The translations under genes and the position numbers were made by a program. The notes under the pieces were generated by a model, which saw only the letters and a list, made by a program, of their open reading frames with translations, searched no databases and was not told the origin of the DNA. A DNA stretch of 64,000 bases, from the NCBI GenBank assembly GCA_014879535.1, contig JACSRX010000029.1, forward strand, positions 93,476-157,475. The letters are read 5' to 3'. Below are positions 6,063 to 43,997 of this stretch, piece by piece (position 1 is the stretch's first letter; every line of letters begins with the position of its first letter). Origin of the DNA: Chthoniobacterales bacterium. Lineage in GTDB: Bacteria > Verrucomicrobiota > Verrucomicrobiia > Chthoniobacterales > JACTMZ01.

Positions 6063-7078
6063 GGCGCGAACTGCGAAAGGAAACGCTGGTCGTTCTCGAC
6101 GAACATCCGGATATCCGGAACGCCGTAAAGGATCATCGCCAGCCGTTCGAGGCCGAAACCGAAGGCGAACCCCGTGACTTTGTCCGGATCGAACGCCCGG
6201 TCGCCCCGCCTCGCGTTGATCTGCTCGAACACGGCGGGGTCCACCATGCCGCAGCCGGCCAGTTCAAGCCAGCGTGTCCCCCCACCCAACGCGGCGGCGC
6301 GCACGTCGAGCTCGTAGCTCGGTTCCGTGAACGGGAAAAAATGCGGACGGAAGCGCACACTCGTGTCCGGCCCGAACAACTCGCGGAAGAAAAACTCAAG
6401 CGTCCCCTTGAGGTCGCCAAGGGTGACTCCCTCGTCGACGTAAAGCCCCTCCATCTGCGTGAACTGCGCCAGATGCGTGGCATCCACCTCATCGCGCCGG
6501 TAGGCGGCGCCGGGGGATATGATGCGCACCGGGGGCGCCTGTCCTTCCATCGTGCGGATTTGCACGCTCGACGTGTGCGTGCGCAGCAACCGCCCGTCGG
6601 GAAGGTAAAACGTGTCCTGCTCGTTGCGCGCCGGATGGTCCTCCGGGGTGTTGAGCGCATCAAAGCAGTGCCACTCCGTCTCGATGTCCGGGCCCTCGGC
6701 CAGCGCGAAGCCCATGCGGCGGAAAATCTCCACGGCCCGGCGTTGGAGGACTTGGAGTGGATGCATGCTGCCGACCGCCCGGGCGACTCCGGGCAGCGTC
6801 GGATCCACACCCGCCAGTTCGGCCTCCTCGGCCGCGGACTGCAGCGCCGCGGTGCGTTCCTCAAGCGCGGCGGACACCGCTTGGCGGACTTCGTGGAGAA
6901 GCTTGCCGATTTCCGGCCGCTCCTCCTTCGCCAGGTGGCGCATCTGCTCCCCGGCATTGGTCAGCCGCCCCGCACGGCCGACATAGGCCACGCGCACGCG
7001 GTCCAACGCCGGGGAGTCGGTTGCGGACGCGATGTCACGCAGCGCCTCCCCGCGCAGGACGTTCAGTTCCTCCCGCAT
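6059..7078 (-). CDS. pheS: Phenylalanine--tRNA ligase alpha subunit
   Basis: Class II core motifs FRPHFFPFTEPS and GCGMVDP...GFAFGFGLERLAMI. Confidence 0.95.
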   Translation of the reverse strand: MREELNVLRGEALRDIASATDSPALDRVRVAYVGRAGRLTNAGEQMRHLAKEERPEIGKLLHEVRQAVSAALEERTAALQSAAEEAELAGVDPTLPGVARAVGSMHPLQVLQRRAVEIFRRMGFALAEGPDIETEWHCFDALNTPEDHPARNEQDTFYLPDGRLLRTHTSSVQIRTMEGQAPPVRIISPGAAYRRDEVDATHLAQFTQMEGLYVDEGVTLGDLKGTLEFFFRELFGPDTSVRFRPHFFPFTEPSYELDVRAAALGGGTRWLELAGCGMVDPAVFEQINARRGDRAFDPDKVTGFAFGFGLERLAMILYGVPDIRMFVENDQRFLSQFAP

Positions 7079-7103
7079 TGGGCGGATCTCCCGGCCTGAA
7101 GGA

Positions 7104-7466
7104 TCAGGCGGCCTTGAGTGCCGCGGCGGCCTTGGCCACCACTTGGTTGAAGGCGGCTTCGTCAGCCACGGCCAGATCGGCCAGCATCTTGCGATTGATG
7201 GCGATCGAAGCCTTCTTCAATCCCTCCAGCAGGCGGCTGTAGGTGATTCCCTCGGCGCGGCATGCGGCGTTGATGCGCGTGATCCACAGCCCGCGCAACG
7301 AACGTTTGCGGGTCTTGCGGTCGCGTGTCGCCCAGACCTGGGCCTTCATCCGCGCGTCTTTCGCGTAGCGGAAGAGTTTGCTTCTGCGTCCGCGATAGCC
7401 CTTGGCTTTCTCGACGACTCTTTTGCGCCGCTCACGACTGGCCGGCGCGTTTGTTGCTCTTGGCAT
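7104..7466 (-). CDS. rplT: 50S ribosomal protein L20
   Basis: [38 protein letters not shown]...; 120 aa. Confidence 0.95.
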
Positions 7467-7585
7467 TTGTTGTCCCGCCTTGCGGCGGTCTCCTTGGGAC
7501 GGATCGTTTCGTTGTTCGGCCCCTCACCTCATCCATCCCGTGAACCCCGATACGCGGGGCCAGGTGCGGCGGCCGGCGTCAATCT

Positions 7586-7795
7586 TCAACCAAAGGGCAG
7601 GTTCTCCTTGATGCGGGCCACGTCGCTCACATCCACGAGGATGTTCTTCGCGAGCTGCCGCTTGCGCTTGGCGCTCTTCGACGCCAGCAAGTGGCGGCGC
7701 GAGGCCTGGGCGCGGAGCACCTTCCCGGAAGCTGTGACCTTGAAACGCTTGGCCACGGCTTTCTTTGTTTTTCTGCGAGCTACCGGTTTCGGCAT
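7586..7795 (-). CDS. rpmI: 50S ribosomal protein L35
   Basis: MPKPVARRKTKKAVAKRFKVTASGKVLRAQASRRHLL...; 69 aa, directly upstream of rplT. Confidence 0.9.
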   Translation of the reverse strand: MPKPVARRKTKKAVAKRFKVTASGKVLRAQASRRHLLASKSAKRKRQLAKNILVDVSDVARIKENLPFG

Positions 7796-7843
7796 AAGCG
7801 AATCACAGTAATGGAAAGGCGCCCTTGCGGCAAACCTTTTCCA

Positions 7844-7990
7844 TCATTCCATCCAGTTGAGGATGTTGAAATTCGCGCTGACCATCACCGTGATGACAAT
7901 CCCGACCGTCAGGATGCCGAGCATTCCGACCGTGGAGGCAATGATGACCAGGGCATTGATGAGCCGGTCTTCGGACTGTGTGTCTTCCAT
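7844..7990 (-). CDS. Small (48 aa) single-pass membrane protein, hypothetical
   Basis: Own translation, below the track length cut-off: MEDTQSEDRLINALVIIASTVGMLGILTVGIVITVMVSANFNILNWME. One clear hydrophobic helix and no homology recognised. Confidence 0.3.
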   Translation of the reverse strand: MEDTQSEDRLINALVIIASTVGMLGILTVGIVITVMVSANFNILNWME

Positions 7991-8056
7991 CAGGGAAGGA
8001 CTACCAGCAAAGCAGGGACCAGACGAGTCCTTTTGCCCGTGGTGGCGCCGGGAAGC

Positions 8057-8602
8057 TCAATGCAGCAGCAGGAAACCCGCCACGCCCCCCGCAAGGATGG
8101 TCAGCGCGGGATTGATGCGCGTGAAGGTCAGCAGCGCGACCACGACGGCACCGATGGCAAGGGTGATGCCATTGTCCTCCCACCCCTTGGCGGGATTGAA
8201 GCTGGCCGTCTTGCCCACCGCATAGGTGCCGGCGAGCATGAGTCCGATGACAATGGGAGCCATCCCCTTTTGAATCGCGTCCCGCCACGGCGATCCGCGG
8301 GCGGACTCCCACAGGCTGCTCACGATGTAGCAGAGGAGGCACGCCGGGAAAAAGAAGGCGAAAAGAACCGCCACTGCGCCGGCCCAACCAGCCACCATGT
8401 AGCCAATGAGGATGACCGAGGTCATGTTCGGTCCGGGAGCGAGCTGACCGAGGCTGTAGATCTCCGCGAACTGCGTGTCGGTGACCCAGTGATGGATATC
8501 GACCGTGTCATGCTTCATCTGCGGCAGAACCGCCGTGCCTCCGCCCACGGCCAGCAGGGACAACAACGCGAAGACGTTGATGAGGTTGACGATGTGGCTC
8601 AT
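8057..8602 (-). CDS. chrA: Chromate transporter (CHR) family half-protein
   Basis: The true start is taken at MSHIVNLINVFALLSLLAVGGGTAVLPQMKHD...; the track ORF extends further upstream. 181 aa, polytopic. 4-nt overlap with the upstream half. Confidence 0.75.
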   Translation of the reverse strand: MSHIVNLINVFALLSLLAVGGGTAVLPQMKHDTVDIHHWVTDTQFAEIYSLGQLAPGPNMTSVILIGYMVAGWAGAVAVLFAFFFPACLLCYIVSSLWESARGSPWRDAIQKGMAPIVIGLMLAGTYAVGKTASFNPAKGWEDNGITLAIGAVVVALLTFTRINPALTILAGGVAGFLLLH

Positions 8603-35608: not shown

Positions 35609-36110
35609 CTACGATCTGGCTCTTTTCGAATCCATGTGGGCACGCGCCGCGGCGATCACGGCTTCGCTAACTCGGAAATTTGTGCGCGTCATCAGCAAGT
35701 CGAGCGTCAGATCGAAATCTGTCAGATTGCGCATGGCAGCCTCGATCACCACGCCCAGAGTGCCCGTGACCGCGAGGTCGAGGCGCGCAGCCACCATGCG
35801 ACCGCGCCGCTCGTCCAACAAGAGCAGATCGGCTTGCACCGCTTGGGCAAGACGGATTGCTGCCGTTTCGCCGACGTCCAGCACCACATCCCCCGGCAGC
35901 ACCGGGGCACCCTACGGAACATCTGTGACGCGCAGCCACGAAGGAACGGAAGCGGCCCATTGACGGAGCGCGGCAGGCGCACGTTCATGGAGGCACTCCG
36001 CAAGAACCTCAGGCGGACACACAACCTCTCCAAATTAAAGCCGGCAACCAAGCAAGACCGTCCACCACTGCCAGATACCGCAGGGGCGTCGTATCGCTGA
36101 CGACGATCAT
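35609..36110 (-). pseudogene. Decayed DUF3368 (PIN-like) gene, partner of the UPF0175 gene
   Basis: From ATG 36110 the sequence reads MIVVSDTTPLRYLAVVDGLAWLPAL. The frame then breaks near 36029-36040, and the ATG frame stops at 36009-36011. The conserved continuation EVVCPPEVLAECLHERAPAALRQWAASVPSWLRVTDVP lies in another frame. That frame ends at an in-frame TAG (35912-35914) and then continues GAPVLPGDVVLDVGETAAIRLA... to 35609. Confidence 0.7.
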
Positions 36111-36373
36111 GCCTCCCGCAGACGATCAAGCGTGGCAAGATCGGATTGCAACTCCCCCGCGGTGACACCGGGCCAAACACCACGCGAGGCAAGAAACTCC
36201 TCCGACTCCCAGCGAGATGTGTGGCCCAGAAGATGGCCCACCTCCGCGCACGAGAGCTTGCCGCTGCGATAACCCTCCACCGCGAGACTCTCCAACGTCG
36301 CCCGCGGGAGGTCATCCCACGCGCCGGTCAGGGTAGCAGCAACGCGGTCGGGAAGTTGCAGGGTGAGAGTCAT
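36107..36373 (-). CDS. UPF0175-family small protein (antitoxin-like partner of DUF3368)
   Basis: MTLTLQLPDRVAATLTGAWDDLPRATLESLAVEGYRSGKLSCAEVGHLLGHTSRWESEEFLASRGV..., 88 aa. Its stop overlaps the DUF3368 ATG (ATGA). Confidence 0.7.
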   Translation of the reverse strand: MTLTLQLPDRVAATLTGAWDDLPRATLESLAVEGYRSGKLSCAEVGHLLGHTSRWESEEFLASRGVWPGVTAGELQSDLATLDRLREA

Positions 36374-36490
36374 ACCCACCAAGCTACGTCGGGGCATCTC
36401 ACTTGGCAACCCGGCCCGAGACCTCGCCGGCAAGCCGGGACTGTGCAGGGTCCTCCATTCCGCCCCACTCCGGTTAAAACTCCAACCCGA

Positions 36491-36540
36491 CTCCGATCGC
36501 TTGCCACGTGCCCTTGGTGATTTGTTGACAGGTCCCTTTC
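36491..36540 (+). repeat. Island repeat unit, short copy D
   Basis: CTCCGATCGCTTGCCACGTGCCCTTGGTGATTTGTTGACAGGTCCCTTTC. Collinear with 37229-37318 apart from two internal deletions. Confidence 0.8.
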
Positions 36541-36553
36541 TGGGGTTGGTTGA

Positions 36554-36586
36554 CATGATGGCCTTTTGCTCCATGATGCCATCATG
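36554..36586 (+). promoter_or_regulatory. Candidate vapBC operator: CATGATGGC / GCCATCATG inverted repeat plus a third CATGATG
   Basis: CATGATGGCCTTTTGCTCCATGATGCCATCATG has 9-bp perfect arms at 36554-36562 and 36578-36586. It overlaps the vapB ATG (36584). A TTGACA lies just upstream at 36550-36555. Confidence 0.45.
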
Positions 36587-36817
36587 ATAAAGACGCAGAT
36601 CCAATTGGAAGAGTGGCAGTATCGTGCCGCGAAGAACGAGTCGGCGAGGACTTCGCGCAGTCTCTCCGACCTCGTCCGGGAGGGGCTGACCTCGGTTCTG
36701 CAGAAATCCCGGCATCAACCCCGCCAAACGCTGGAAAGTCTGGCCGGCAAGTATGGACCACAGTCCACCGACGATCTCAAACCGCATGACCAAGCTTGGG
36801 CGGATTCGATCCGATGA
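36584..36817 (+). CDS. vapB: Ribbon-helix-helix type antitoxin (VapB-like)
   Basis: MIKTQIQLEEWQYRAAKNESARTSRSLSDLVREGL... ATGA overlap with the PIN toxin gene. Confidence 0.7.
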   Translation: MIKTQIQLEEWQYRAAKNESARTSRSLSDLVREGLTSVLQKSRHQPRQTLESLAGKYGPQSTDDLKPHDQAWADSIR

Positions 36818-37218
36818 AGCCCGTGTTTGTGGACACGAGCGGCTTCTACGCGTTCCTCGACCGCACCGACCCGTTCCACGACCAAGCCAGCACCTTTTTT
36901 CTCCGGGCCCGTGACGAGGGCTGGGGGCTCTTCACTTCGAGCTATGTGGTCCACGAAACCTGGGCCCTCATCCAAGCACGCCTCGGCTGGGGCGCCGTGG
37001 AAGACTGGCTCTCCTCCCTGCTTCCCCTTTGCGAGGTCGTGTGGGTCGATGAAACCCTCCACCGCCTCGGCATGGCCCGCGCCCGCCAAGTCAGGGAAAG
37101 ACGACTGAGCCTCACCGACTGCGTCTCCTTCGAGGTCATGTCCGCCCGCAACTGCCTCGAAGCCATCGCCGACGACGAGCACTTCCGCAAACTGGGCTAC
37201 CTCCCACCCAAGGATTGA
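36814..37218 (+). CDS. vapC: PIN-domain toxin (VapC family)
   Basis: MKPVFVDTSGFYAFLDRTDPFH (first acidic residue), ...TSSYVVHET..., ...LSLTDCVSFEVM..., ...AIADDEHF. Confidence 0.8.
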   Translation: MKPVFVDTSGFYAFLDRTDPFHDQASTFFLRARDEGWGLFTSSYVVHETWALIQARLGWGAVEDWLSSLLPLCEVVWVDETLHRLGMARARQVRERRLSLTDCVSFEVMSARNCLEAIADDEHFRKLGYLPPKD

Positions 37219-37228
37219 TCCGCCCCTC

Positions 37229-37318
37229 CTCCGATCGCTCGCCACGTGCCCCATGGCGGGGAAAAAGGAAAGCATGGTGACTGTGTTGAGATTTGTTGAC
37301 AGACCCCTTTTTGCCTTT
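37229..37318 (+). repeat. Island repeat unit, long copy A. It is a direct repeat of D, and its distal 39 bp is an inverted repeat of units B and C.
   Basis: CTCCGATCGCTCGCCACGTGCCCCATGGCGGGGAAAAAGGAAAGCATGGTGACTGTGTTGAGATTTGTTGACAGACCCCTTTTTGCCTT. Positions 37285-37307 are the exact reverse complement of 41833-41855 and 42401-42423. Confidence 0.85.
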
Positions 37319-37326
37319 TCCTCGGT

Positions 37327-40300
37327 TCACCCACGAGACGCCTTTGTGTTCCATACAAATCCAACCTTTTGGAGTTGTTGAACGCGATTAGGTTTAAGTG
37401 TTCCTATCTTGAAGTGCGTTCGTTGTGTATTGACCCACCTACCAAGGAGCTTATCACCTCCGCCTTTTTGCGGGACGTTGCAGTGGCCATGGAGTTTCTT
37501 GAATTCAACCAACCTGTCGAACATTCGATCCCATGCATTCCGCTCAACTAGACGCCAGCTAAAGCCAATTTCATCGAGACGCTTGCTGCGCTTGGCGATG
37601 ATGGGACGATTGTATCGCTTTGCAGCCCGCTGACTTCGAACCCAAGTTCCAAGAGCAGCGTATTTACCGGAACGTTGAGGAACGTTTGTGTGGCCATGCT
37701 CTTTCTTAAATTCGACAAGTTGCCGGAACATTTCTTCCCAGCGGGTGCCAATTGGATCCCACTCGAAGCCCGCGTCGTTCAGCCGCTGCACGCGGTCTGG
37801 AGCGAGACGTTCGCGGCTGTAAGCCATGCGCTGTTCTGAAACCCAGTCTGCGAGTTTTCGATTCTCTTTCCACCGCTGCGGAACGAGGCAGTCGCCGTGC
37901 GCCTGTTTGTATTCGAGCAACGCCTGAAACATCATCTCGAAGTATTTTACGCTGGATAGCGGCCTCTCACCATTCGACGGTTTGGGCATGTGCGTTCGCG
38001 GCCTGCCACCTTTTCGCCCACCGTCCCAATCAAAAGCCAGTTCGTTCAGTCGTGCGATTTGCCAATCTGCCAGCTTCTGCTTCCGATACTTCCGTCGTTG
38101 TGTTGTGACCCACCATCCCAGCTTTTTGTCAGGCCGATAAACTTGTGGGACGGCTGCGTGACCGTGCTCCGCATGGAATGCAATAAGCCGCTTCAGCATT
38201 GTGTTCCACGCTTCCTGTGGGGAGCGGGTGCCGCTGAATTCACCGAGCCTCCAAGCGAAACCGAGAGCATCAAGCGCGGCGATTCGCTCGGGTGAAAGTT
38301 TGCCATCCAGCTTCCGCGCACGCTGAACCCCAACCCAATTCGCCAGCACTGGATTCTTGCTCCAGGCGGCTGGAACGCGACAGTGGCCGTGCTCCGCATG
38401 AAACCGCTTCAGTTCTCCAAGCATCCTATTCCAACGCGATGCGAACGGCTCCCACTCGAATCCGATGCCGGTGAGCCGCTTCTCACGCTCGGGTTCTAGG
38501 TCTCCGCGCTTTTTCGATTGGCGCTGAGTCAGCATCCACCGTTTCAGTTCGTCGCTGGCGGGTGCCTCTCGCCGCTTTCCATTGTGCATGGGCCGCATGT
38601 GTTCGACCAACTTTGCGAACATGGCATCCCAAGCGCCATCATGTGTGCTCCAGGCAAAGCCGATTTCCTCCATTCTGCTCACCTGCTCCGGCGTGAGCTG
38701 ATTCTGCTTCTTGGCCCGCCGTTGTATGGCGACCCAACGAGCAAGTTGGGGTTGAGGCGTCCAATCGGCAGGCACGTTGCAGTGGCCGTGCAGTTTGAAG
38801 AAGTCCACCAACTCAGAAAGCATTTCGTCCCATGTGCGGGTGATGGGAGTCTCGTCCACAGGAATAAGCTGCGAGGGCATCCCGATGCGCCGCGCGTTTC
38901 GCTGCCACACGAAACCAATTTCGTTCAGGGCGTTGATTCGCGTCTCGCTCAGCTCGCCCCGCTTCTTAGCCTGCCTCTGAGTCAGCATCCAGCGGTTGAG
39001 CTTCTTCGTGTCCTCGTCCACCACATAAACCGCAGCAGCGCCGTGCGCGGCGGCGTAAGCCCGAAAGCGGTCGAAAGCCACACGCCACTGCTTGTCTGGG
39101 TCGGTCGTTTTTTCATCAGCTCTGCTTGCTGCAGTTCGCCCATCCCATTCAAACCCGATAGAATTTAAGCGCTCAACAAGTGCATCAGAGAGTTTCCCCT
39201 TTTTATGCTGGTGTCGCTGACGAACAACCCACCTTCCCAGAAGCCCATTTTCTGCCCACTGCACATTGACGCGGGTGTGGCCAAATCTCTCCTTGAAAGC
39301 ACAAAGGTCAGCGAATCGCTTTTCCCATGTGCTTCGGTCGACCTTCCAGTCGAACCCAATCTTCTCGAGTAACGCAATTCGATCTCCATGTAGTTCGCCA
39401 CTCAGGAAGTCCATCCGCTGGGTTTTCACCCAGTGAGCCAGCGAATTGTTCTCCTTCCAATTCTGCGGAACACGGCAATGCCCGAAGCGTTTCTGGAACT
39501 TCACCAACTCCAGATAGGCACCTCGCCAATTCGTTTCTCTCGGATTCCAATTAAAACCCAGACGGTTCAAGAGCTCGACTTTCTCCGGCTCCAGATTGCC
39601 ATCACGTTTCCGCACTCGCTGATCCACAACCCATGTCGCCAGTTTTTGGTGCGCGTCCCATCGAGCGGGAATGCCGCAATCCCCGTGCTTCTGTTTGTAG
39701 GCAACCAGTTGCCCGTAACGCTCGAACCATGGTTCGCCAACCGCATCGAGACATGCCGCAGTGATGGTGCTGCGTAGCACTTCGAGGGAAAGCTCCGGCC
39801 CGAATATCTCCACTCGTTCTCGGAAACGGCTGTCGTCAAATCCGCCCGTGCAACCCCGCTCAATCCGCATCTCGGCGATAGTCTGAGCAAGCAGGTCGTC
39901 CTGCTCCTTCAGGCTCTGAAGGACTCTCCAAACCTCGTCGAAATTACTGCGCAAGACCGCCTGCTCAGTGGTCTCGCCGCGTGCCTCCTCGACGTAGAGC
40001 GGCACTAACACGTAGCCGATTTCCTTCTCTGGAGAGCGTCGCATTGCTCGGCCTGTCGCCTGCACGATGTCCACAATGCTTCTCTTCGGACTGAGAAACG
40101 CCACCATGTCAACAGCGGGAACATCCACGCCTTCCGTGAGACATCGCGCGTTGGAGAGAATGGCGCGCGGAGCGGCAGCGAATTCGCGCAGTAGCCGTTC
40201 GCGGTAAACGGTAGTCATCGCCCCTTCGATGTGCGCACAATGAAATCCCTTGAGATGTGTGCCGATGCCTTCCGGTCCGCCGGAGGTGAACGACTTAGCC

Positions 40301-41721
40301 GAATTGACCTTGGAGTGGAAGGTGAACACTTTCGAAACTTTGTATTTCTCAATGGCTGACTTGAGCGCGATTTGATTGGCAACTTGTCGGGCCTTTACTT
40401 CGTCCCCTTCGACCAGGACAACACCAAGCCGCAGCGCTTCGTTGGTGACCATCTCCGATGTCACAACCGAAATCAGCACCTTATAGTCGGTGATGATTCC
40501 AGCCTTCGCTGCCGCGTTGAACGGCAGCCGATGAACGACTTGCCCGTAAGTCTCGGGCACATTCATCGAGAAGACGACTTTCGATTCACCAAACTTGTCC
40601 TTCTTCGCCACGTCATAGTGACGCGGTGTCGCAGTCATGAAAAGTCGGCGTGCAATGGGCAGATTCTCGTCCTTGAGCGCGAGTGCAAACCTCGCGCCGT
40701 CTCGTCCAGCGGTCTTATGAGCTTCGTCGAACACGCCGAAATCAAAAGGCGGCAAGCCAGCGACGGCTGCCGCGACGACTTGGCTGGATTGATACGTGGA
40801 GAACACCAACCGCACCGAGTCGGTCTGCCTCTCAAGGAAGCGCCGCACGTCGGTAGCCTGCGTAGTGACCGCAAAGTCGAGGTCGGACGGGCGAACCAAC
40901 AGCGAATCTTCCTCCGGCTGAACTGTCGGATCGGAACAGACGCACAGGAATTGAACATCCGGCCAACTCGTCTCGTGAAGCCACTCGTGCAACGTCTGGC
41001 GAACCAGTGCCAGCGAAGGCAGCAAAACCAGCACGGTGCGTGCCCCAAGTCGTTCCGCAGCCCAAAGGGCGACCAAGGTCTTACCGCTGCCGCAAGCCAT
41101 CAATGCCGTGGCTCGTGGACCGCGTGCCAAACCTCCAACAATATCATTCAGGGCGACGACTTGGTGAGGCTTTGGATGTTTCCTTTTAGGGGCGGCCGCT
41201 CGCTCCGCGAGCCAAGCTTCGATGATCTGGAAATCCTCCGGCGTTAGGCGGTCGAGGTCGCTGCCCCTGACGAAGATGGCCCCCAACCGTTCCTCAGCGA
41301 CGCGGGCGACTTCATCGCAGTTGGTAAATACGAGCCTGCGCGCGCCAACATCAGCCAGGCCATAAAAAGTAGAAAGTTCGGTCCAAGTGAGCGCTGGCCG
41401 CCCAGTGCGGAACTTTGATTGGTAGCAGACGGGCTCCTCCACCGAACTGACGAATACTCCATCCACTCCCATGTCTGCCAACGGCAAGCGGAGTTGCTGG
41501 CGCAGTGATGAAGGCATTGAGTTTCCCGGCCAAACGTCGCGAGCCTGATAGATTCGCTGTGTCGCCAAACACGCTTCGGCGAAGACTTCGAGTGCTGCAC
41601 CTCTCGCTTGCTCCGTTGGCAGTGCTGCAATTCGCTCTTCAAGCTCGGCGAAAATCTGAACCCCTGACATCAAGCCGAGGCCATGAAAATGTTTCGCTTT
41701 GGGATGACGCGGCAGGTTCAT
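37327..41721 (-). CDS. Nuclease-helicase with an N-terminal PD-(D/E)xK (Mrr-like) domain, an SF2 DEAH helicase core and eleven tandem HA (helicase-associated) repeats
   Basis: 1,464 aa. Nuclease-like ...LADMGVDGVF...VCYQSKF. Walker A MACGSGKT (aa 208-215), DEAH (332-335), TAT (363-365), LTEGVDVP, and motif VI QATGRAMR (554-561). From aa ~663 there are eleven units of the form W..F..L..F...HGH..VP......L..WV..QR......L...R...L..IGF.W. Confidence 0.85.
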   Translation of the reverse strand: MNLPRHPKAKHFHGLGLMSGVQIFAELEERIAALPTEQARGAALEVFAEACLATQRIYQARDVWPGNSMPSSLRQQLRLPLADMGVDGVFVSSVEEPVCYQSKFRTGRPALTWTELSTFYGLADVGARRLVFTNCDEVARVAEERLGAIFVRGSDLDRLTPEDFQIIEAWLAERAAAPKRKHPKPHQVVALNDIVGGLARGPRATALMACGSGKTLVALWAAERLGARTVLVLLPSLALVRQTLHEWLHETSWPDVQFLCVCSDPTVQPEEDSLLVRPSDLDFAVTTQATDVRRFLERQTDSVRLVFSTYQSSQVVAAAVAGLPPFDFGVFDEAHKTAGRDGARFALALKDENLPIARRLFMTATPRHYDVAKKDKFGESKVVFSMNVPETYGQVVHRLPFNAAAKAGIITDYKVLISVVTSEMVTNEALRLGVVLVEGDEVKARQVANQIALKSAIEKYKVSKVFTFHSKVNSAKSFTSGGPEGIGTHLKGFHCAHIEGAMTTVYRERLLREFAAAPRAILSNARCLTEGVDVPAVDMVAFLSPKRSIVDIVQATGRAMRRSPEKEIGYVLVPLYVEEARGETTEQAVLRSNFDEVWRVLQSLKEQDDLLAQTIAEMRIERGCTGGFDDSRFRERVEIFGPELSLEVLRSTITAACLDAVGEPWFERYGQLVAYKQKHGDCGIPARWDAHQKLATWVVDQRVRKRDGNLEPEKVELLNRLGFNWNPRETNWRGAYLELVKFQKRFGHCRVPQNWKENNSLAHWVKTQRMDFLSGELHGDRIALLEKIGFDWKVDRSTWEKRFADLCAFKERFGHTRVNVQWAENGLLGRWVVRQRHQHKKGKLSDALVERLNSIGFEWDGRTAASRADEKTTDPDKQWRVAFDRFRAYAAAHGAAAVYVVDEDTKKLNRWMLTQRQAKKRGELSETRINALNEIGFVWQRNARRIGMPSQLIPVDETPITRTWDEMLSELVDFFKLHGHCNVPADWTPQPQLARWVAIQRRAKKQNQLTPEQVSRMEEIGFAWSTHDGAWDAMFAKLVEHMRPMHNGKRREAPASDELKRWMLTQRQSKKRGDLEPEREKRLTGIGFEWEPFASRWNRMLGELKRFHAEHGHCRVPAAWSKNPVLANWVGVQRARKLDGKLSPERIAALDALGFAWRLGEFSGTRSPQEAWNTMLKRLIAFHAEHGHAAVPQVYRPDKKLGWWVTTQRRKYRKQKLADWQIARLNELAFDWDGGRKGGRPRTHMPKPSNGERPLSSVKYFEMMFQALLEYKQAHGDCLVPQRWKENRKLADWVSEQRMAYSRERLAPDRVQRLNDAGFEWDPIGTRWEEMFRQLVEFKKEHGHTNVPQRSGKYAALGTWVRSQRAAKRYNRPIIAKRSKRLDEIGFSWRLVERNAWDRMFDRLVEFKKLHGHCNVPQKGGGDKLLGRWVNTQRTHFKIGTLKPNRVQQLQKVGFVWNTKASRG
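37330..39735 (-). repeat. Coding tandem array of 11 HA-domain units (about 66-73 aa each), diverged at the DNA level
   Basis: Unit starts read from the translation: EPWFERYGQL, TNWRGAYLEL, STWEKRFADL, KQWRVAFDRF, RTWDEMLSEL, GAWDAMFAKL, SRWNRMLGEL, EAWNTMLKRL, KYFEMMFQAL, TRWEEMFRQL, NAWDRMFDRL. Confidence 0.85.
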
Positions 41722-41826: not shown

Positions 41827-41941
41827 GCAAATGGGGTCTGTCAACAAATCTCAACAATGTCTCAAGATCTCCCGATACCGGAAGCAGGTGGTGACTCGCT
41901 CGTTGACCATGCCGACGGCCTGCATGAAGGCGTAGCAGATG
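41827..41941. repeat. Island repeat unit B plus a truncated third copy (75 bp) of the tag 3' end
   Basis: GCAAATGGGGTCTGTCAACAAATCTCAACAATGTCTCAAG is followed by ATCTCCCGATACCGGAAGCAGGTGGTGACTCGCTCGTTGACCATGCCGACGGCCTGCATGAAGGCGTAGCAGATG. It is collinear with 42395-42509, with a few mismatches. Confidence 0.85.
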
Positions 41942-41949
41942 TGCAGGCA

Positions 41950-42231
41950 TCAGAGGGCAACGTAGGCTTTTGCGCCCCCGGGAATCCGCGAGGGGTCAAT
42001 CCTGGCGTCGAAGGTGGCAAAGCGGCCGCCGTGTTTCACCGCCAAGTGGTGGATGGATGGGGATGGCACGCCGGAATTCCTCCTCGTCAAGTTCCGCCTC
42101 GATCTCCTTGATCTTCTCCAAGGTGATCGTTTCCCCAGCCCCCCCTCTGTAGCGCCAAGAATCCAAGGGGCCCGATTTCGAATTTCTCCGGGGCTGGGTT
42201 GGTCGTTTTCATGGATATGGGTGTGTGTCAA
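41950..42231 (-). pseudogene. Toxin-antitoxin remnant: C-terminal fragment of a PIN/VapC-type toxin, possibly fused to an antitoxin fragment
   Basis: The track ORF ends ...SIHHLAVKHGGRFATFDARIDPSRIPGGAKAYVAL, like VapC C-termini (..LAA.A..HG..LATFD..F...PG...). No N-terminal PIN acidic residues are present. A neighbouring frame reads ETITLEKIKEIEAELDEEEFRRA. Confidence 0.45.
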
Positions 42232-42269
42232 ATATCACTCGAAAAGCCCCTCCTTGTCAGCCATCCATA

Positions 42270-42390
42270 ACCTCCCGATGCCGAAAGCAGGTGGTCACAT
42301 GGTCGTTGACCATGCCGACGGCTTGCATGAAGGCGTAGCAGATGGTCGAGCCGACGAAGTTGAAGCCGAGCTTTTTGAGGTCCTTGCTCA
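42270..42390. repeat. Second copy (121 bp) of the tag 3' end with its own stop context
   Basis: Differs from 42435-42555 at 5 of 121 positions. On the minus strand it encodes (V)SKDLKKLGFNFVGSTICYAFMQAVGMVNDHVTTCFRHREVMDG*. Confidence 0.9.
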
Positions 42391-42391
42391 C

Positions 42392-42555
42392 AAGGCAAAA
42401 GGGGTCTGTCAACAAATCTCAACAATGTCTCAATACCTCCCGATGCCGGAAGCAGGTGGTGACGTGGTCGTTGACCATGCCGACGGCCTGCATGAAGGCG
42501 TAGCAGATGGTCGAGCCGACGAAGTTGAAGCCGAGCTTTTTGAGATCCTTGCTCA
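42392..42555. repeat. Island repeat unit C plus the resident copy of the repeated tag 3' segment
   Basis: AAGGCAAAAGGGGTCTGTCAACAAATCTCAACAATGTCTCAAT is followed by the last ~40 codons of tag. The last six tag codons and the stop (EVLRHC*) are encoded inside unit C. Confidence 0.9.
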
Positions 42556-43003
42556 TGGCGTCCGACTCCGTGGTGCGGGTCGGGAGGTTGGCCATGGAGG
42601 CCCGGCGGTGCTGACGCGGTTTTCCGTCCACATAACGCCAGAGAAATGAATCGAGGGACCCGTGCTCCTCGCGGATCTTCAGGACGCCGCAGGCATTGCG
42701 GATGGTGGACTCGATCTTGAGACGGTTGCGGACGATCCCCGGGTCCTGCATCAACCTCTCCACATCGCGCGGGGAAAACCGGGCAACTTTCTCCGCGTCG
42801 AACCCGGCGAACGCCTTGCGGTAGTTCTCCCGCTTCTTGAGGATGGTCAGCCAACTCAGCCCGGCCTGGGCGCCTTCCAGGATGAGGAACTCGAAGAGCA
42901 CGCGGTCGTCGTGCACGGGCACACCCCATTCTTCATCATGGTAGGCCACATAGAGCGGATCATTCGGGCACCAAGCGCAGCGCTTTTTCACGGGGGATGT
43001 CAC
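42419..43003 (-). CDS. tag: DNA-3-methyladenine glycosylase I
   Basis: KKRCAWCPNDPLYVAYHDEEWGVPVHDDRVLFEFLILEGAQAGLSWLTILKKRENYRKAF...GSTICYAFMQAVGMVNDH aligns with E. coli Tag throughout. GTG 43003 is chosen as the start; ATG 43054 would overlap the mlaD-like gene. Confidence 0.85.
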   Translation of the reverse strand: MTSPVKKRCAWCPNDPLYVAYHDEEWGVPVHDDRVLFEFLILEGAQAGLSWLTILKKRENYRKAFAGFDAEKVARFSPRDVERLMQDPGIVRNRLKIESTIRNACGVLKIREEHGSLDSFLWRYVDGKPRQHRRASMANLPTRTTESDAMSKDLKKLGFNFVGSTICYAFMQAVGMVNDHVTTCFRHREVLRHC

Positions 43004-43013
43004 AAGCAGAAAA

Positions 43014-43997
43014 TTAAGGCCGCGGGGTGGCCGATGCCGAAACCTGCCCTGCATCACGGATCGTCGCCGCATTCCGCTGCCGCGGCAGGAACAGGCGGAG
43101 CACCCAGATGTTGCGGAAATCCGCGATCAGGGATTCCGCGCGGCCAGCCGCCGCGTTCGAGCGCTCGAGAAGCTGGTGGAGTTCGGGGGCGGAGGTCTTG
43201 GCGGTCTGCTCAAGCTGCTCGGACGTGCGGCGCAGCGCGGAGACACTCTTTCCGATTTCATCCATCAAGGGAGGCAGGCGGCTTTCGACTTCGCTGGTGA
43301 CCGCAAGCAGATGCCTCCGCGCCTGCGCGATGTCCCCGTTCTCGTCCGCGAGCCCCTCCATGAACTCCCTCGTGGACTTGGTGGCCGCCGTGGCCTCGGC
43401 CAGCGTCGCCGGAACATCCCGGGCCAGATCGACCGTGAGCGTGCGCACGGCGGCAAGCGATTGACGCACATCGCCGTCGGGGCTGTTGAGTTCGTTGAAC
43501 AGCTCGGCGCCCGTGGCGATGACCGGACGCAGGTCGTCGCGCAGGGATTTCGCAATCTCGCCGAGGGAGGCCTCGCGCTCGACCGCGATGTCCGCCCCGT
43601 CCTGCAACGGCGGCAAGCTTGGCGTGCCGGTCCGTAGATTGATGTAGGGTGTCTCCAGCGGACCGCGTCCGGTGAGAACCGCCACCGCATCCTGTCGCAG
43701 CCAGACCGCCCCCCGACGCCGCACCCGCAGGGACATCCGGGGTTCCCCCTGCTCGTCCAGCCAGACATCATGCACCCTCCCCACCCGGATGCCGTGCAGG
43801 GTGACATTCATGCCCGGCAAAATGCCGTCCGCCCGCCCGGGCGAGGCGAAATAGTCATCCGTCGGCTCGAACAAATCCTGCTGCCATGCAAGGACGGCTC
43901 CCATGAAAATCAGGAGGATGCAGAGCAAAGCGAGGAAGCTGCCGACCTTGAGGCCGAGGTATTGGAACCTTGGATCCGTGTCGCGCAGATATTTCAT
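43014..43997 (-). CDS. mlaD: MlaD/MCE-family substrate-binding protein
   Basis: N-terminal TM (VGSFLALLCILLIFMGAVLAW). MCE domain (GILPGMNVTLHGIRVGRVHDVWLDEQGEPRMSLRV...). Long helical C-terminus. Confidence 0.75.
   Translation of the reverse strand: MKYLRDTDPRFQYLGLKVGSFLALLCILLIFMGAVLAWQQDLFEPTDDYFASPGRADGILPGMNVTLHGIRVGRVHDVWLDEQGEPRMSLRVRRRGAVWLRQDAVAVLTGRGPLETPYINLRTGTPSLPPLQDGADIAVEREASLGEIAKSLRDDLRPVIATGAELFNELNSPDGDVRQSLAAVRTLTVDLARDVPATLAEATAATKSTREFMEGLADENGDIAQARRHLLAVTSEVESRLPPLMDEIGKSVSALRRTSEQLEQTAKTSAPELHQLLERSNAAAGRAESLIADFRNIWVLRLFLPRQRNAATIRDAGQVSASATPRP

What the first reader, a model, noticed from the sequence alone, without database searches (positions are those of the whole stretch)
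41827..42555. Three direct copies of the tag 3' end: att-like scars of serial site-specific integration
Seen: the last ~40 codons of tag (42435-42555) recur at 42270-42390, with 121 bp and 5 mismatches. A truncated 75-bp copy lies at 41867-41941, also with 5 mismatches. The resident copy and the distal copy are each followed by the same 33-34-bp unit GGGGTCTGTCAACAAATCTCAACAATGTCTCAA. So 42395-42509 and 41827-41941 form a ~115-bp direct repeat. It brackets a 459-bp segment made of the middle tag copy and a toxin remnant. The middle copy ends with a different C-terminus (…HREVMDG*) from the functional gene (…HREVLRHC*). The last six codons of the functional gene lie inside the repeat unit. Established: elements that integrate into the 3' end of a gene carry a replacement 3' end and leave the displaced copy as a direct repeat. 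Inference: there were at least two integration events at tag, followed by deletion.
Basis: partly seen in the sequence, partly recalled or inferred. Interest (0 to 1): 0.65.

Follow-up and report, generated by a model that had tools for sequence, protein, structure and literature searches.

The report
Stacked tag gene-end copies with REP repeats
Three diverged copies of the end of a DNA-repair gene (tag) mark repeated insertion of small toxin-antitoxin DNA at that gene end, with no recombinase nearby, and the short "unit" beside two copies is a genome-wide REP-type repeat, not a private attachment site.

Summary
The last 121 bp of tag (42435-42555) recur at 42270-42390 (96%) and, truncated to about 78 bp, at 41867-41944. 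An identical 33-bp unit follows the resident and the distal copy.

- The middle copy differs from the resident copy only at synonymous sites (6 synonymous, 0 non-synonymous). It therefore came from another functional tag allele.
- The distal copy shares the resident copy's synonymous sites but carries 4-5 amino-acid changes. It is a decaying displaced end.
- Between them lies a gutted VapBC-type module that is intact in a relative.
- Independent arrays of the form tag, TA cassette, about 100 bp of tag end, TA cassette occur in Armatimonadota.

So repeated insertion at the tag end is supported.

Not supported:
- The 33-bp unit is one of 11 copies in this genome. It belongs to a repeat conserved across Chthoniobacterales, where it flanks RAYT-like Y1 transposase genes, so it is REP-like.
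- There is no integrase in the window and no serine recombinase in the genome.
- tag is not syntenic in relatives.

Most likely mechanism (inferred): cassettes without an integrase entered by recombination through the highly conserved tag 3' end, and deletions followed.

The parts
42419..43000 (-). Resident tag gene (DNA-3-methyladenine glycosylase I). The start is approximate, about 13 nt after the stop of the upstream MCE/MlaD-like gene.
   Evidence: Pfam Adenine_glyco, 281 bits, profile 1-177/177. 83-85% aa identity to G001 and G020.
42435..42555 (-). R1: the 3' 121 nt of the resident tag (codons MSKDL...HREV), the reference for the repeats.
42395..42433 (-). U_A: REP-like unit that overlaps the last 5 codons and the stop of tag (..LRHC*). 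The sense strand reads TGTTGAGATTTGTTGACAGACCCCTTTTGCC.
   Evidence: Exact 33-nt match. Member of an 11-copy genome family. An orthologous copy lies at the tag stop in G020.
42257..42390 (-). R2: middle tag 3' copy (121 nt) with its own tail ...VMDG* (stop at 42257-42259). It is joined to U_A by only TTG.
   Evidence: 96% identity to R1. All 6 differences inside the repeat are synonymous.
41944..42212 (-). Remnant of a VapBC-type TA module. The antitoxin has an internal deletion and a frameshift. Only the last ~32 codons of the PIN toxin remain.
   Evidence: 86-90% nt identity to G001 L023 15603-15705 and 16052-16194, with a ~350-nt gap. The intact G001 toxin hits TIGR00028 VapC at 85.6 bits.
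41867..41944 (-). R3: distal, truncated tag 3' copy (~78 nt, ...CYAFMQAVGMVNERVTTCFRYREILRHC*).
   Evidence: It has 0 synonymous and 4-5 non-synonymous differences from R1 (one at the junction codon). At codon 31 the His aligned with a reported E. coli Tag zinc ligand is changed to Arg (ligand identity from memory).
41827..41865 (-). U_B: second REP-like unit. Its 33-nt core is identical to U_A.
37327..41721 (-). 1464-aa ResIII/DEAD helicase with 11 HA repeats. It is low-GC cargo lying between inverted U copies.
   Evidence: Pfam. GC is 0.55-0.59 against about 0.61-0.67 in the surrounding region.
37284..37317 (+). U_C: inverted copy of the unit, just after vapC and just before the helicase stop.
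36575..37218 (+). Intact vapBC-like pair (antitoxin 36575-36817, PIN toxin 36814-37218).
   Evidence: Pfam PIN, 34 bits.
36518..36540 (+). U_D: degenerate unit copy upstream of vapB.
   Evidence: 2 mismatches in the 18-nt core.
35609..36373 (-). UPF0175 antitoxin plus a broken DUF3368 partner, at the left edge of the accessory stretch.
   Evidence: Pfam. An in-frame TAG is seen in the sequence.

Best explanation
The locus is a decayed stack of small insertions at the 3' end of tag. Each insertion either brought a replacement tag end or displaced the previous one.

Step 1 (inferred). A compact VapBC-type cassette carrying a tag 3' end from another functional allele (R2, tail VMDG*) recombined into tag. 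This pushed the original end (R3) and its adjoining REP-like unit (U_B) downstream.

Step 2 (inferred). A second event placed an R1+U_A end, of the same lineage as R3+U_B, in front. This cut the R2-bearing gene down to 121 nt.

Step 3 (shown). Deletions then removed most of the TA module.

Proposed mechanism (inferred, not shown). Single-crossover (Campbell-type) homologous recombination occurred between the chromosomal tag end and a tag-end copy carried on the incoming DNA, with no dedicated integrase. The tag end is conserved at nucleotide level across phyla and so offers a ready landing pad.

The 33-bp unit is a REP-like repeat linked to RAYT-type Y1 transposases in Chthoniobacterales. It already sat at the tag stop codon in the common ancestor with G020. 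It is a passenger in the duplication and does not define an attachment site.
For: - The copies are real and significant.
- R1 vs R2: 6 synonymous and 0 non-synonymous differences inside the repeat, so R2 evolved under selection in another lineage.
- R1 vs R3: 0 synonymous and 4-5 non-synonymous differences, including a change at the His aligned with a reported Tag zinc ligand. So R3 is the same lineage as R1 and is decaying.
- The TA remnant matches an intact VapBC pair in G001.
- There is no Phage_integrase hit in the window and no Resolvase hit in the genome.
- G001 and G020 have single tag ends.
- Parallel arrays without an integrase exist elsewhere. G163/L286 reads tag, Phd, 99-bp tag end, Phd/RelE, tag end. 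L137 reads tag, Phd, tag end. L200 has the same Phd/RelE cassette directly after tag. G212 has the same cassettes in a different order at the orthologous locus. L162 has a 2.6-kb insert between 45-bp tag-end repeats.
- Repeat lengths vary (45, 78, 99-110, 121 nt).
- An exact 36-nt tag-end pattern occurs in 97 species genomes of many phyla.
- tblastn with 12 integrase catalytic domains finds nothing in about 217 tag loci.
- REP nature of the unit: there are 11 copies in G000, and it is conserved in other families. It flanks PF01797 / REP_Tyr_transpos-like genes in inverted orientation in at least 8 loci. Inverted doublets occur in G030.
Against:
- Step 2 requires an inserted body of almost zero length (U_A plus 'TTG'), so an extra deletion or an illegitimate join must be assumed.
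- RecA recombination on 75-120 nt is inefficient, and how such small DNA would move between cells is unknown.
- A trans-acting or lost integrase would leave the same pattern.
- The integrase screen of other tag loci was crude.
- The Armatimonadota parallels may stem from few independent events.
- The tag-linked variant of the unit has lost the hairpin, and G000 lacks an intact RAYT. The unit's present activity, if any, is therefore unknown.
Confidence: 0.4

Rival explanations
1. Classical serial site-specific integration. Integrase-bearing elements with an attP containing the tag 3' end integrated in tandem. They then lost their integrase and cargo, leaving CIME-like relics bounded by attL/attR. 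TA genes survived longest because they are addictive.
For: The topology is that of accretion and CIME formation as described for ICE/IME families (PMC5704250, read). Displaced gene ends from a foreign allele fit this model. Recurrence at the same gene end in other phyla also fits. G000 has 12 tyrosine recombinases above cut-off elsewhere that could act in trans.
Against: No integrase lies in the window or in any of the parallel arrays. No integrase-like sequence was found in about 217 tag loci. The cassettes in Armatimonadota are too compact and tidy to be random deletion relics. Repeat lengths and boundaries differ between events. Two literature searches found no report of tag as an att site.
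Confidence: 0.25
2. REP-associated rearrangement. The 115-bp [tag end + unit] duplication arose through the repeat itself. Possible routes are unequal exchange or replication slippage between REP copies, or aberrant processing by a RAYT-type HUH enzyme. Foreign DNA then landed between the copies in an unrelated event.
For: The unit is 33/33 identical in both copies, while the adjoining tag part differs at 6 of ~78 aligned positions (8 nt in the codon count that includes the junction codon). In G038, the inner flank plus the unit is multiplied in tandem at both ends of a locus. Duplicated ends occur beside RAYT-like genes (L063, L090).
Against: The middle copy has no unit and comes from a foreign allele. 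The Armatimonadota arrays have no such unit. G000 has no intact RAYT, only a C-terminal remnant on C95. The tag-linked unit variant does not fold into a hairpin.
Confidence: 0.12
3. Allelic replacement by homology-facilitated illegitimate recombination. Linear DNA from relatives was anchored in tag and joined illegitimately at its far end. Each time, this left the recipient's tag end behind the incoming segment.
For: The junctions lack any shared site. U_A joins R2 through 'TTG', and the toxin end joins R3 through a possible 'CAT' microhomology. Haplotypes are mixed. tag is accessory and non-syntenic in the genus.
Against: This model needs duplication rather than the usual deletion at the illegitimate joint. 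It does not explain why the same architecture recurs with neat cassette boundaries in another phylum.
Confidence: 0.12
4. Assembly artefact of a metagenome-assembled genome, in which strain variants of the tag end were stitched in series.
For: G000 is a 97-contig draft. R2 looks like another strain's allele. Reads could not be inspected.
Against: The copies differ by 4-8% and are not collapsed or exact. The junctions lie outside shared sequence, which is not where graph chimeras form. Similar arrays occur in two independent assemblies of the Armatimonadota lineage (L096/L286 and L146) and in other genomes.
Confidence: 0.04

Closest known systems
Tandem accretion and CIMEs (cis-mobilizable elements) at the 3' end of protein-coding or tRNA genes, e.g. 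ICESt1/ICESt3-related islands of Streptococcus thermophilus
   Same: There are direct repeats of the target gene's 3' end. The newest insertion lies nearest the gene, older displaced ends lie further out, and decayed elements lack integration genes (PMC5704250).
   Different: No integrase, relaxase or att core is identifiable here or in the parallel arrays. The inserts are only TA cassettes or a REP unit. The target gene, tag, was not found as a reported att site in the literature searches.
REP/REPIN sequences and their RAYT (REP-associated tyrosine transposase) genes
   Same: The 33-bp unit belongs to a short, dispersed repeat. Its order-wide consensus is an imperfect palindrome (CWGTCAA-N6-TTGACWG+ACCCC). 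It flanks Y1-transposase genes in inverted orientation and forms ~115-bp inverted doublets. REP/REPIN features are taken from PMC3116915, PMC3337134 and PMC3733652 (abstracts).
   Different: Copy number is low (11 per genome, not hundreds). The transposase is ~350 aa and present in up to 14 copies in some genomes, whereas RAYTs are typically single-copy (PMC5581495 abstract). Its REP_Tyr_transpos score is below the NCBIfam cut-off (68.6 < 80). G000 has no intact copy, and its tag-linked variant has lost the hairpin.
Integron cassette arrays (attC-bounded cassettes, often TA genes in chromosomal arrays)
   Same: These are arrays of compact, promoter-proximal cassettes separated by a repeated ~100-nt element. 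Cassette order differs between related genomes (G163 vs G212).
   Different: The repeated element is a fragment of a coding gene and not a structured attC. No IntI-type integrase or attI is present. The arrays are very short (2-3 units).

Membership tests
Integrative element / CIME bounded by attL-attR at a gene 3' end | Direct repeats consisting of the target gene's 3' end flank the inserted DNA | tested here: met
   R1/R2/R3. A 115-bp repeat brackets 459 bp.
Integrative element / CIME bounded by attL-attR at a gene 3' end | A cognate tyrosine or serine recombinase lies in the element, or is demonstrably acting in trans | tested here: not met
   No PF00589 hit in the window (the nearest, sub-threshold hit lies about 2 kb upstream of the window start and about 44 kb from tag). 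No PF00239 hit in the genome. Action in trans is not testable here.
Integrative element / CIME bounded by attL-attR at a gene 3' end | The empty site exists in relatives, or excision is observed | tested here: inconclusive
   G001 and G020 have a single tag end, but their tag loci are not syntenic. Read-level excision could not be tested.
REP / REPIN-RAYT system (for the 33-bp unit) | Short imperfect palindrome present in multiple dispersed copies, mostly outside genes | tested here: met
   There are 11 copies in G000, and further copies in G030 and G038. The consensus folds with a 5-7-bp stem, z -2.1 to -3.3. However, the tag-linked variant does not fold, and it overlaps 5 codons of tag.
REP / REPIN-RAYT system (for the 33-bp unit) | A Y1 (HUH) transposase gene flanked by two repeats in inverted orientation | tested here: met
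   Seen at G030 L050 8654-9766 and at 8 of 30 homologous loci on both sides. PF01797 scores 39 bits (cut-off 23).
REP / REPIN-RAYT system (for the 33-bp unit) | The transposase is an equivalog of the REP-associated tyrosine transposase and is single-copy per genome | tested here: not met
   NF047646 scores 68.6 bits, below the cut-off of 80. There are up to 13-14 copies per genome. There is none in G000 apart from a C-terminal remnant.
REP / REPIN-RAYT system (for the 33-bp unit) | Inverted doublets (REPINs) | tested here: met
   G030: L051 5953/6028, and L052 6417/6497 and 7263/7342, about 115 bp overall. None was seen in G000.
Type II toxin-antitoxin (VapBC) for the segment between the copies | Adjacent antitoxin and PIN-toxin reading frames | tested here: not met
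   Only fragments remain (no Pfam hit). The intact homologue in G001 meets the criterion (TIGR00028, 85.6 bits).

The most novel reading that the evidence does not exclude
Small TA cassettes, each coupled to a ~45-120-nt copy of the tag 3' end, form a class of recombinase-less mobile cassettes. They home to tag, or to any earlier tag-end copy, by homologous single crossover through this nucleotide-conserved gene end. This builds short integron-like arrays whose order can differ between genomes. The G000 locus would be a decayed example in Verrucomicrobiota, and G163, G212, L137 and L200 would be live examples in Armatimonadota.
Probability: 0.2. Interest if true: 0.7.

Novelty: new variant of a known kind. 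Interest (0 to 1): 0.42.

Why it matters
If the reading holds, a conserved repair gene's 3' end serves as a landing pad for selfish TA cassettes without any dedicated recombinase. The same solution appears in two distant phyla. That would add a homology-driven route to the known integrase-driven ways in which accessory genes pile up at gene ends. It would also explain integrase-less 'att-like' repeats seen in draft genomes. Separately, the work defines a REP-like repeat and its RAYT-like transposase family for Chthoniobacterales. This helps annotate repeats that otherwise look like private att sites or terminal inverted repeats. For this window alone the biology is modest: it is a relic with no evident current function.

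Tried and rejected
- Sigma-70 promoter reading of the unit (it contains TTGACA). Rejected, because no conserved -10 lies at a proper spacing in any copy (sequence inspection).
- Tn3-type terminal repeat (GGGGTCTG...). Rejected, because similarity stops after 8 nt and neither flank is conserved between copies.
- dif/pdif-like Xer site and integron attC. No matching core motifs or symmetry were seen by eye. Not pursued further.
- Synteny test for the empty site. The neighbours of tag in G000 were not found near tag in G001 or G020, and the Mla-like operon's downstream side differs in every relative. No ancestral empty site could be defined.
- Metagenome scan for the exact tag-unit junction: 0 hits.
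- Literature searches for tag as an integration target: nothing relevant. The first attempt failed on syntax.
- tblastn of the G030 RAYT against G000 gave only chance hits.
- Integrase screen of about 217 tag loci: none found. The positive control on the own genome gave 43 hits.
- One NCBIfam call failed on coordinates, and one genome search failed on the 'of' argument.

Full report
**Observation**

tag lies on the minus strand at 42419 to about 43000. It hits Pfam Adenine_glyco at 281 bits over the full-length profile. Its last 121 nt (42435-42555) recur at 42270-42390 with 96% identity. They recur again, truncated, at 41867-41944. Against the whole 3.17-Mb assembly the two extra copies score E 5e-51 and E 3e-45, and there is no fourth copy. 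The 33-nt unit is exact at 41833-41865 and 42401-42433, and none of 100 shuffles gave two matches.

**What the 33-nt unit is**

The unit is not private to tag.
- An inverted copy lies at 37284-37311, between vapC and the end of the 1464-aa helicase gene. A degenerate copy lies at 36518-36540, and seven more lie on contigs C16 (two copies), C52, C74, C93 and C95 (two copies).
- With up to 3 mismatches, the 22-nt core is also present in G030 (11 copies), G038 and G001, which span other families of the same order.
- Two record titles identify the order as Chthoniobacterales. G020 is JBGSSV010000017 and G001 is CAZSUJ010000056.
- The order-wide consensus is CTGTCAAGATTTGTTGACTGACCCC. It is an imperfect palindrome (CWGTCAA-N6-TTGACWG) followed by ACCCC.
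- In G030 a 349-aa gene is flanked by two inverted copies with GGGG/CCCC outermost (L050 8654-9766). Its product hits Pfam Y1_Tnp (39 bits, cut-off 23) and, as best NCBIfam hit, REP-associated tyrosine transposase (68.6 bits, below the cut-off of 80).
- Homologues occur in 78 of 151 genomes of the order. In 8 of the 30 loci fetched, the same motif flanks the gene on both sides in inverted orientation.
- G030 also has ~115-nt inverted doublets of the unit.

These are the hallmarks of REP/REPIN-RAYT systems (PMC3116915, PMC3337134, PMC3733652). There are differences:
- Copy number is low.
- The transposase is long and often multi-copy, whereas RAYTs are typically single-copy (PMC5581495).
- G000 keeps only a C-terminal remnant of the transposase (C95 26686-26940, ending ...NVKNC* inside a unit copy, as the G030 protein does).
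- The consensus unit and the C16 variant fold into 5-7-bp hairpins. The variant found next to tag (left arm TGTTGAG) does not.

In G020 a unit copy sits at exactly the same place, overlapping the tag stop codon with the same 5' flank (TGAGAC). There it is read in another frame (...HRECAETLSRVVD*). The tag-unit junction therefore predates the split of these lineages, or it travelled with tag. The VLRHC tail is repeat-encoded filler. Tails after ...CFR differ in every relative examined, so neither VMDG nor VLRHC is meaningfully ancestral.

**The three copies are not equivalent**

- Inside the 121-nt repeat, R2 differs from R1 at six codons, all synonymous. R2 therefore evolved as part of a working tag gene in another lineage.
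- R3 shares every synonymous site with R1. It has 4-5 amino-acid changes, one of them at the junction codon. One change turns the His at codon 31 into Arg. This His aligns with a reported E. coli Tag zinc ligand in the H-x3-C motif (the ligand identity is from my own knowledge and was not tested here).
- R3 is thus the same lineage as the resident end and has decayed.
- R2 is followed, 47 nt after its own stop, by the remains of a TA pair. These remains comprise the antitoxin start and C-terminal half, with an internal deletion and a frameshift, and the last ~32 codons of a PIN toxin.
- The intact pair exists in G001, 2.3 kb downstream of its tag. The G001 toxin hits TIGR00028 VapC at 85.6 bits.
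- R3 starts about 10 nt after the toxin stop. R2 starts 3 nt (TTG) after the end of U_A.

**Context**

- The stretch from 35.6 to 43 kb is accessory. It holds UPF0175 with a broken DUF3368, vapBC, the HA-repeat helicase, the TA remnant and tag. GC falls to 0.55-0.59 between 37 and 43 kb.
- There is no tRNA gene.
- There is no Phage_integrase hit in the window. The nearest, sub-threshold hit lies about 2 kb upstream of the window start, about 44 kb from tag.
- There is no Resolvase hit in the whole genome.
- tag itself is accessory in this genus. Only G000, G001 and G020 of 25 genomes carry it. None of the neighbours of tag in G000 is near tag in the other two.
- The conserved Mla-like operon (permease, ATPase-like protein, MCE) has a different downstream side in every relative.

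**Parallels elsewhere**

A 36-nt pattern from the tag end occurs exactly in 97 species genomes from many phyla and in more than 120 metagenome contigs. The tag end is therefore conserved at nucleotide level. Among about 217 loci fetched, a few carry extra tag-end copies.
- Armatimonadota MAG G163 (L286, the same as L096; also L146) reads: tag, Phd antitoxin, 99-nt tag end (98%), Phd/RelE pair, tag end (89%).
- L137 reads: tag, Phd, tag end.
- L200 has the same Phd/RelE cassette (86-90% aa identity) directly after tag, with no distal copy.
- G212 has, at the locus with the same downstream flank, a tag-less array: tag end, Phd/RelE, tag end, tag end, Phd. The cassette order is the reverse of G163. 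An intact, unadorned tag lies on another contig.
- L162 has a 2.6-kb insert between 45-nt tag-end repeats.
- None of these contains a recombinase gene. A tblastn screen with 12 integrase domains found none in any tag locus (positive control).

**Explanation**

Several facts point to repeated insertion at the tag end, with replacement and displacement of the gene end and later deletion:
- the foreign-allele signature of R2;
- the decayed same-lineage R3;
- the gutted TA module between them;
- single ends in the relatives;
- recurrence of the architecture elsewhere.

That the recombination was site-specific is not shown. I favour single-crossover homologous recombination through the tag-end homology carried by the incoming DNA (confidence 0.4). 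My reasons are that every example lacks a recombinase, the cassettes are minimal, the repeat lengths vary, and the target is conserved at nucleotide level.

The rivals are:
- an integrase acting in trans or since lost (CIME-like accretion, PMC5704250), at 0.25;
- a REP-mediated duplication plus an unrelated insertion, at 0.12;
- homology-facilitated illegitimate recombination, at 0.12;
- an assembly artefact, at 0.04.

The second event in G000 is awkward for all models. The 'insert' between R1 and R2 is only the REP unit plus three bases, so a further deletion or an illegitimate join must be assumed.

**Limits**

No reads could be examined. No close strain of G000 was found. The Armatimonadota cases may represent few independent events. 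The claim about homologous recombination is an inference from absence and architecture.

**Verdict**

It is a new variant of a known kind (accretion relics), with a REP-like repeat that was mistaken for part of an att site. Interest is moderate. The recombinase-less tag-end cassette idea is the part worth following up.

Noticed in passing
L286 (G163:C492) 970-2700; L137; L200; L322 (G212:C102): Armatimonadota genomes carry arrays of Phd and Phd/RelE cassettes. Each cassette is preceded by ~100 nt of the tag 3' end. Cassette order differs between G163 and G212, and the G212 array has lost its tag gene.
   Followed up: partly
L162 261-2962: A 2.6-kb insert with two unknown ORFs lies between tag and a prfB-like gene. 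It is flanked by 45-nt direct repeats of the tag end and has no recombinase.
   Followed up: no
L053 (G038:C33) about 6970-8550: Both sides of a ~400-nt centre carry tandem multiplied copies (3-6 each) of [60-70-nt inner flank + REP-like unit] pointing outward. Part of the stretch is masked with N.
   Followed up: no
order-wide: The ~350-aa RAYT-like Y1 transposase family occurs in 78 of 151 Chthoniobacterales genomes, with up to 13-14 copies per genome. This is unlike the usual single-copy RAYT pattern. Its stop codon often lies inside the flanking unit.
   Followed up: partly
window 37284-37311 and 41833-41865; G000 C16 37735-37752 and 40243-40260: Inverted unit pairs (GGGG pointing inward) bracket single low-GC cargo genes. 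The cargo is the HA-repeat helicase here and a caspase-like Peptidase_C14+TPR gene on C16. TA modules lie just outside each pair.
   Followed up: partly
window 36489-36515 and 37229-37255: A second direct repeat, CTCCGATCGCTYGCCACGTGCCC, precedes the unit on both sides of vapBC. The module is therefore bounded by ~50-90-nt direct repeats.
   Followed up: no
window 35609-36110: The DUF3368 partner of the UPF0175 antitoxin is interrupted by an in-frame TAG and a frame change. It is a toxin pseudogene beside an intact antitoxin.
   Followed up: no
window 43000-43014: tag starts about 13 nt after the stop of the MCE/MlaD-like gene, with no room for its own promoter. G001 and G020 share a ~100-nt tag upstream region that is absent here.
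   Followed up: no
G000 C95 25825-26940: Remnants of an IS110-family transposase C-terminus and of the RAYT-like C-terminus lie on either side of an inverted unit pair 600 nt apart.
   Followed up: no
The 36-nt tag segment CTGCTACGCCTTCATGCARGCCGTYGGNATGGTCAA is identical in genomes of Acidobacteriota, Planctomycetota, Proteobacteria, Nitrospirota, Actinomycetota and others.
   Followed up: partly
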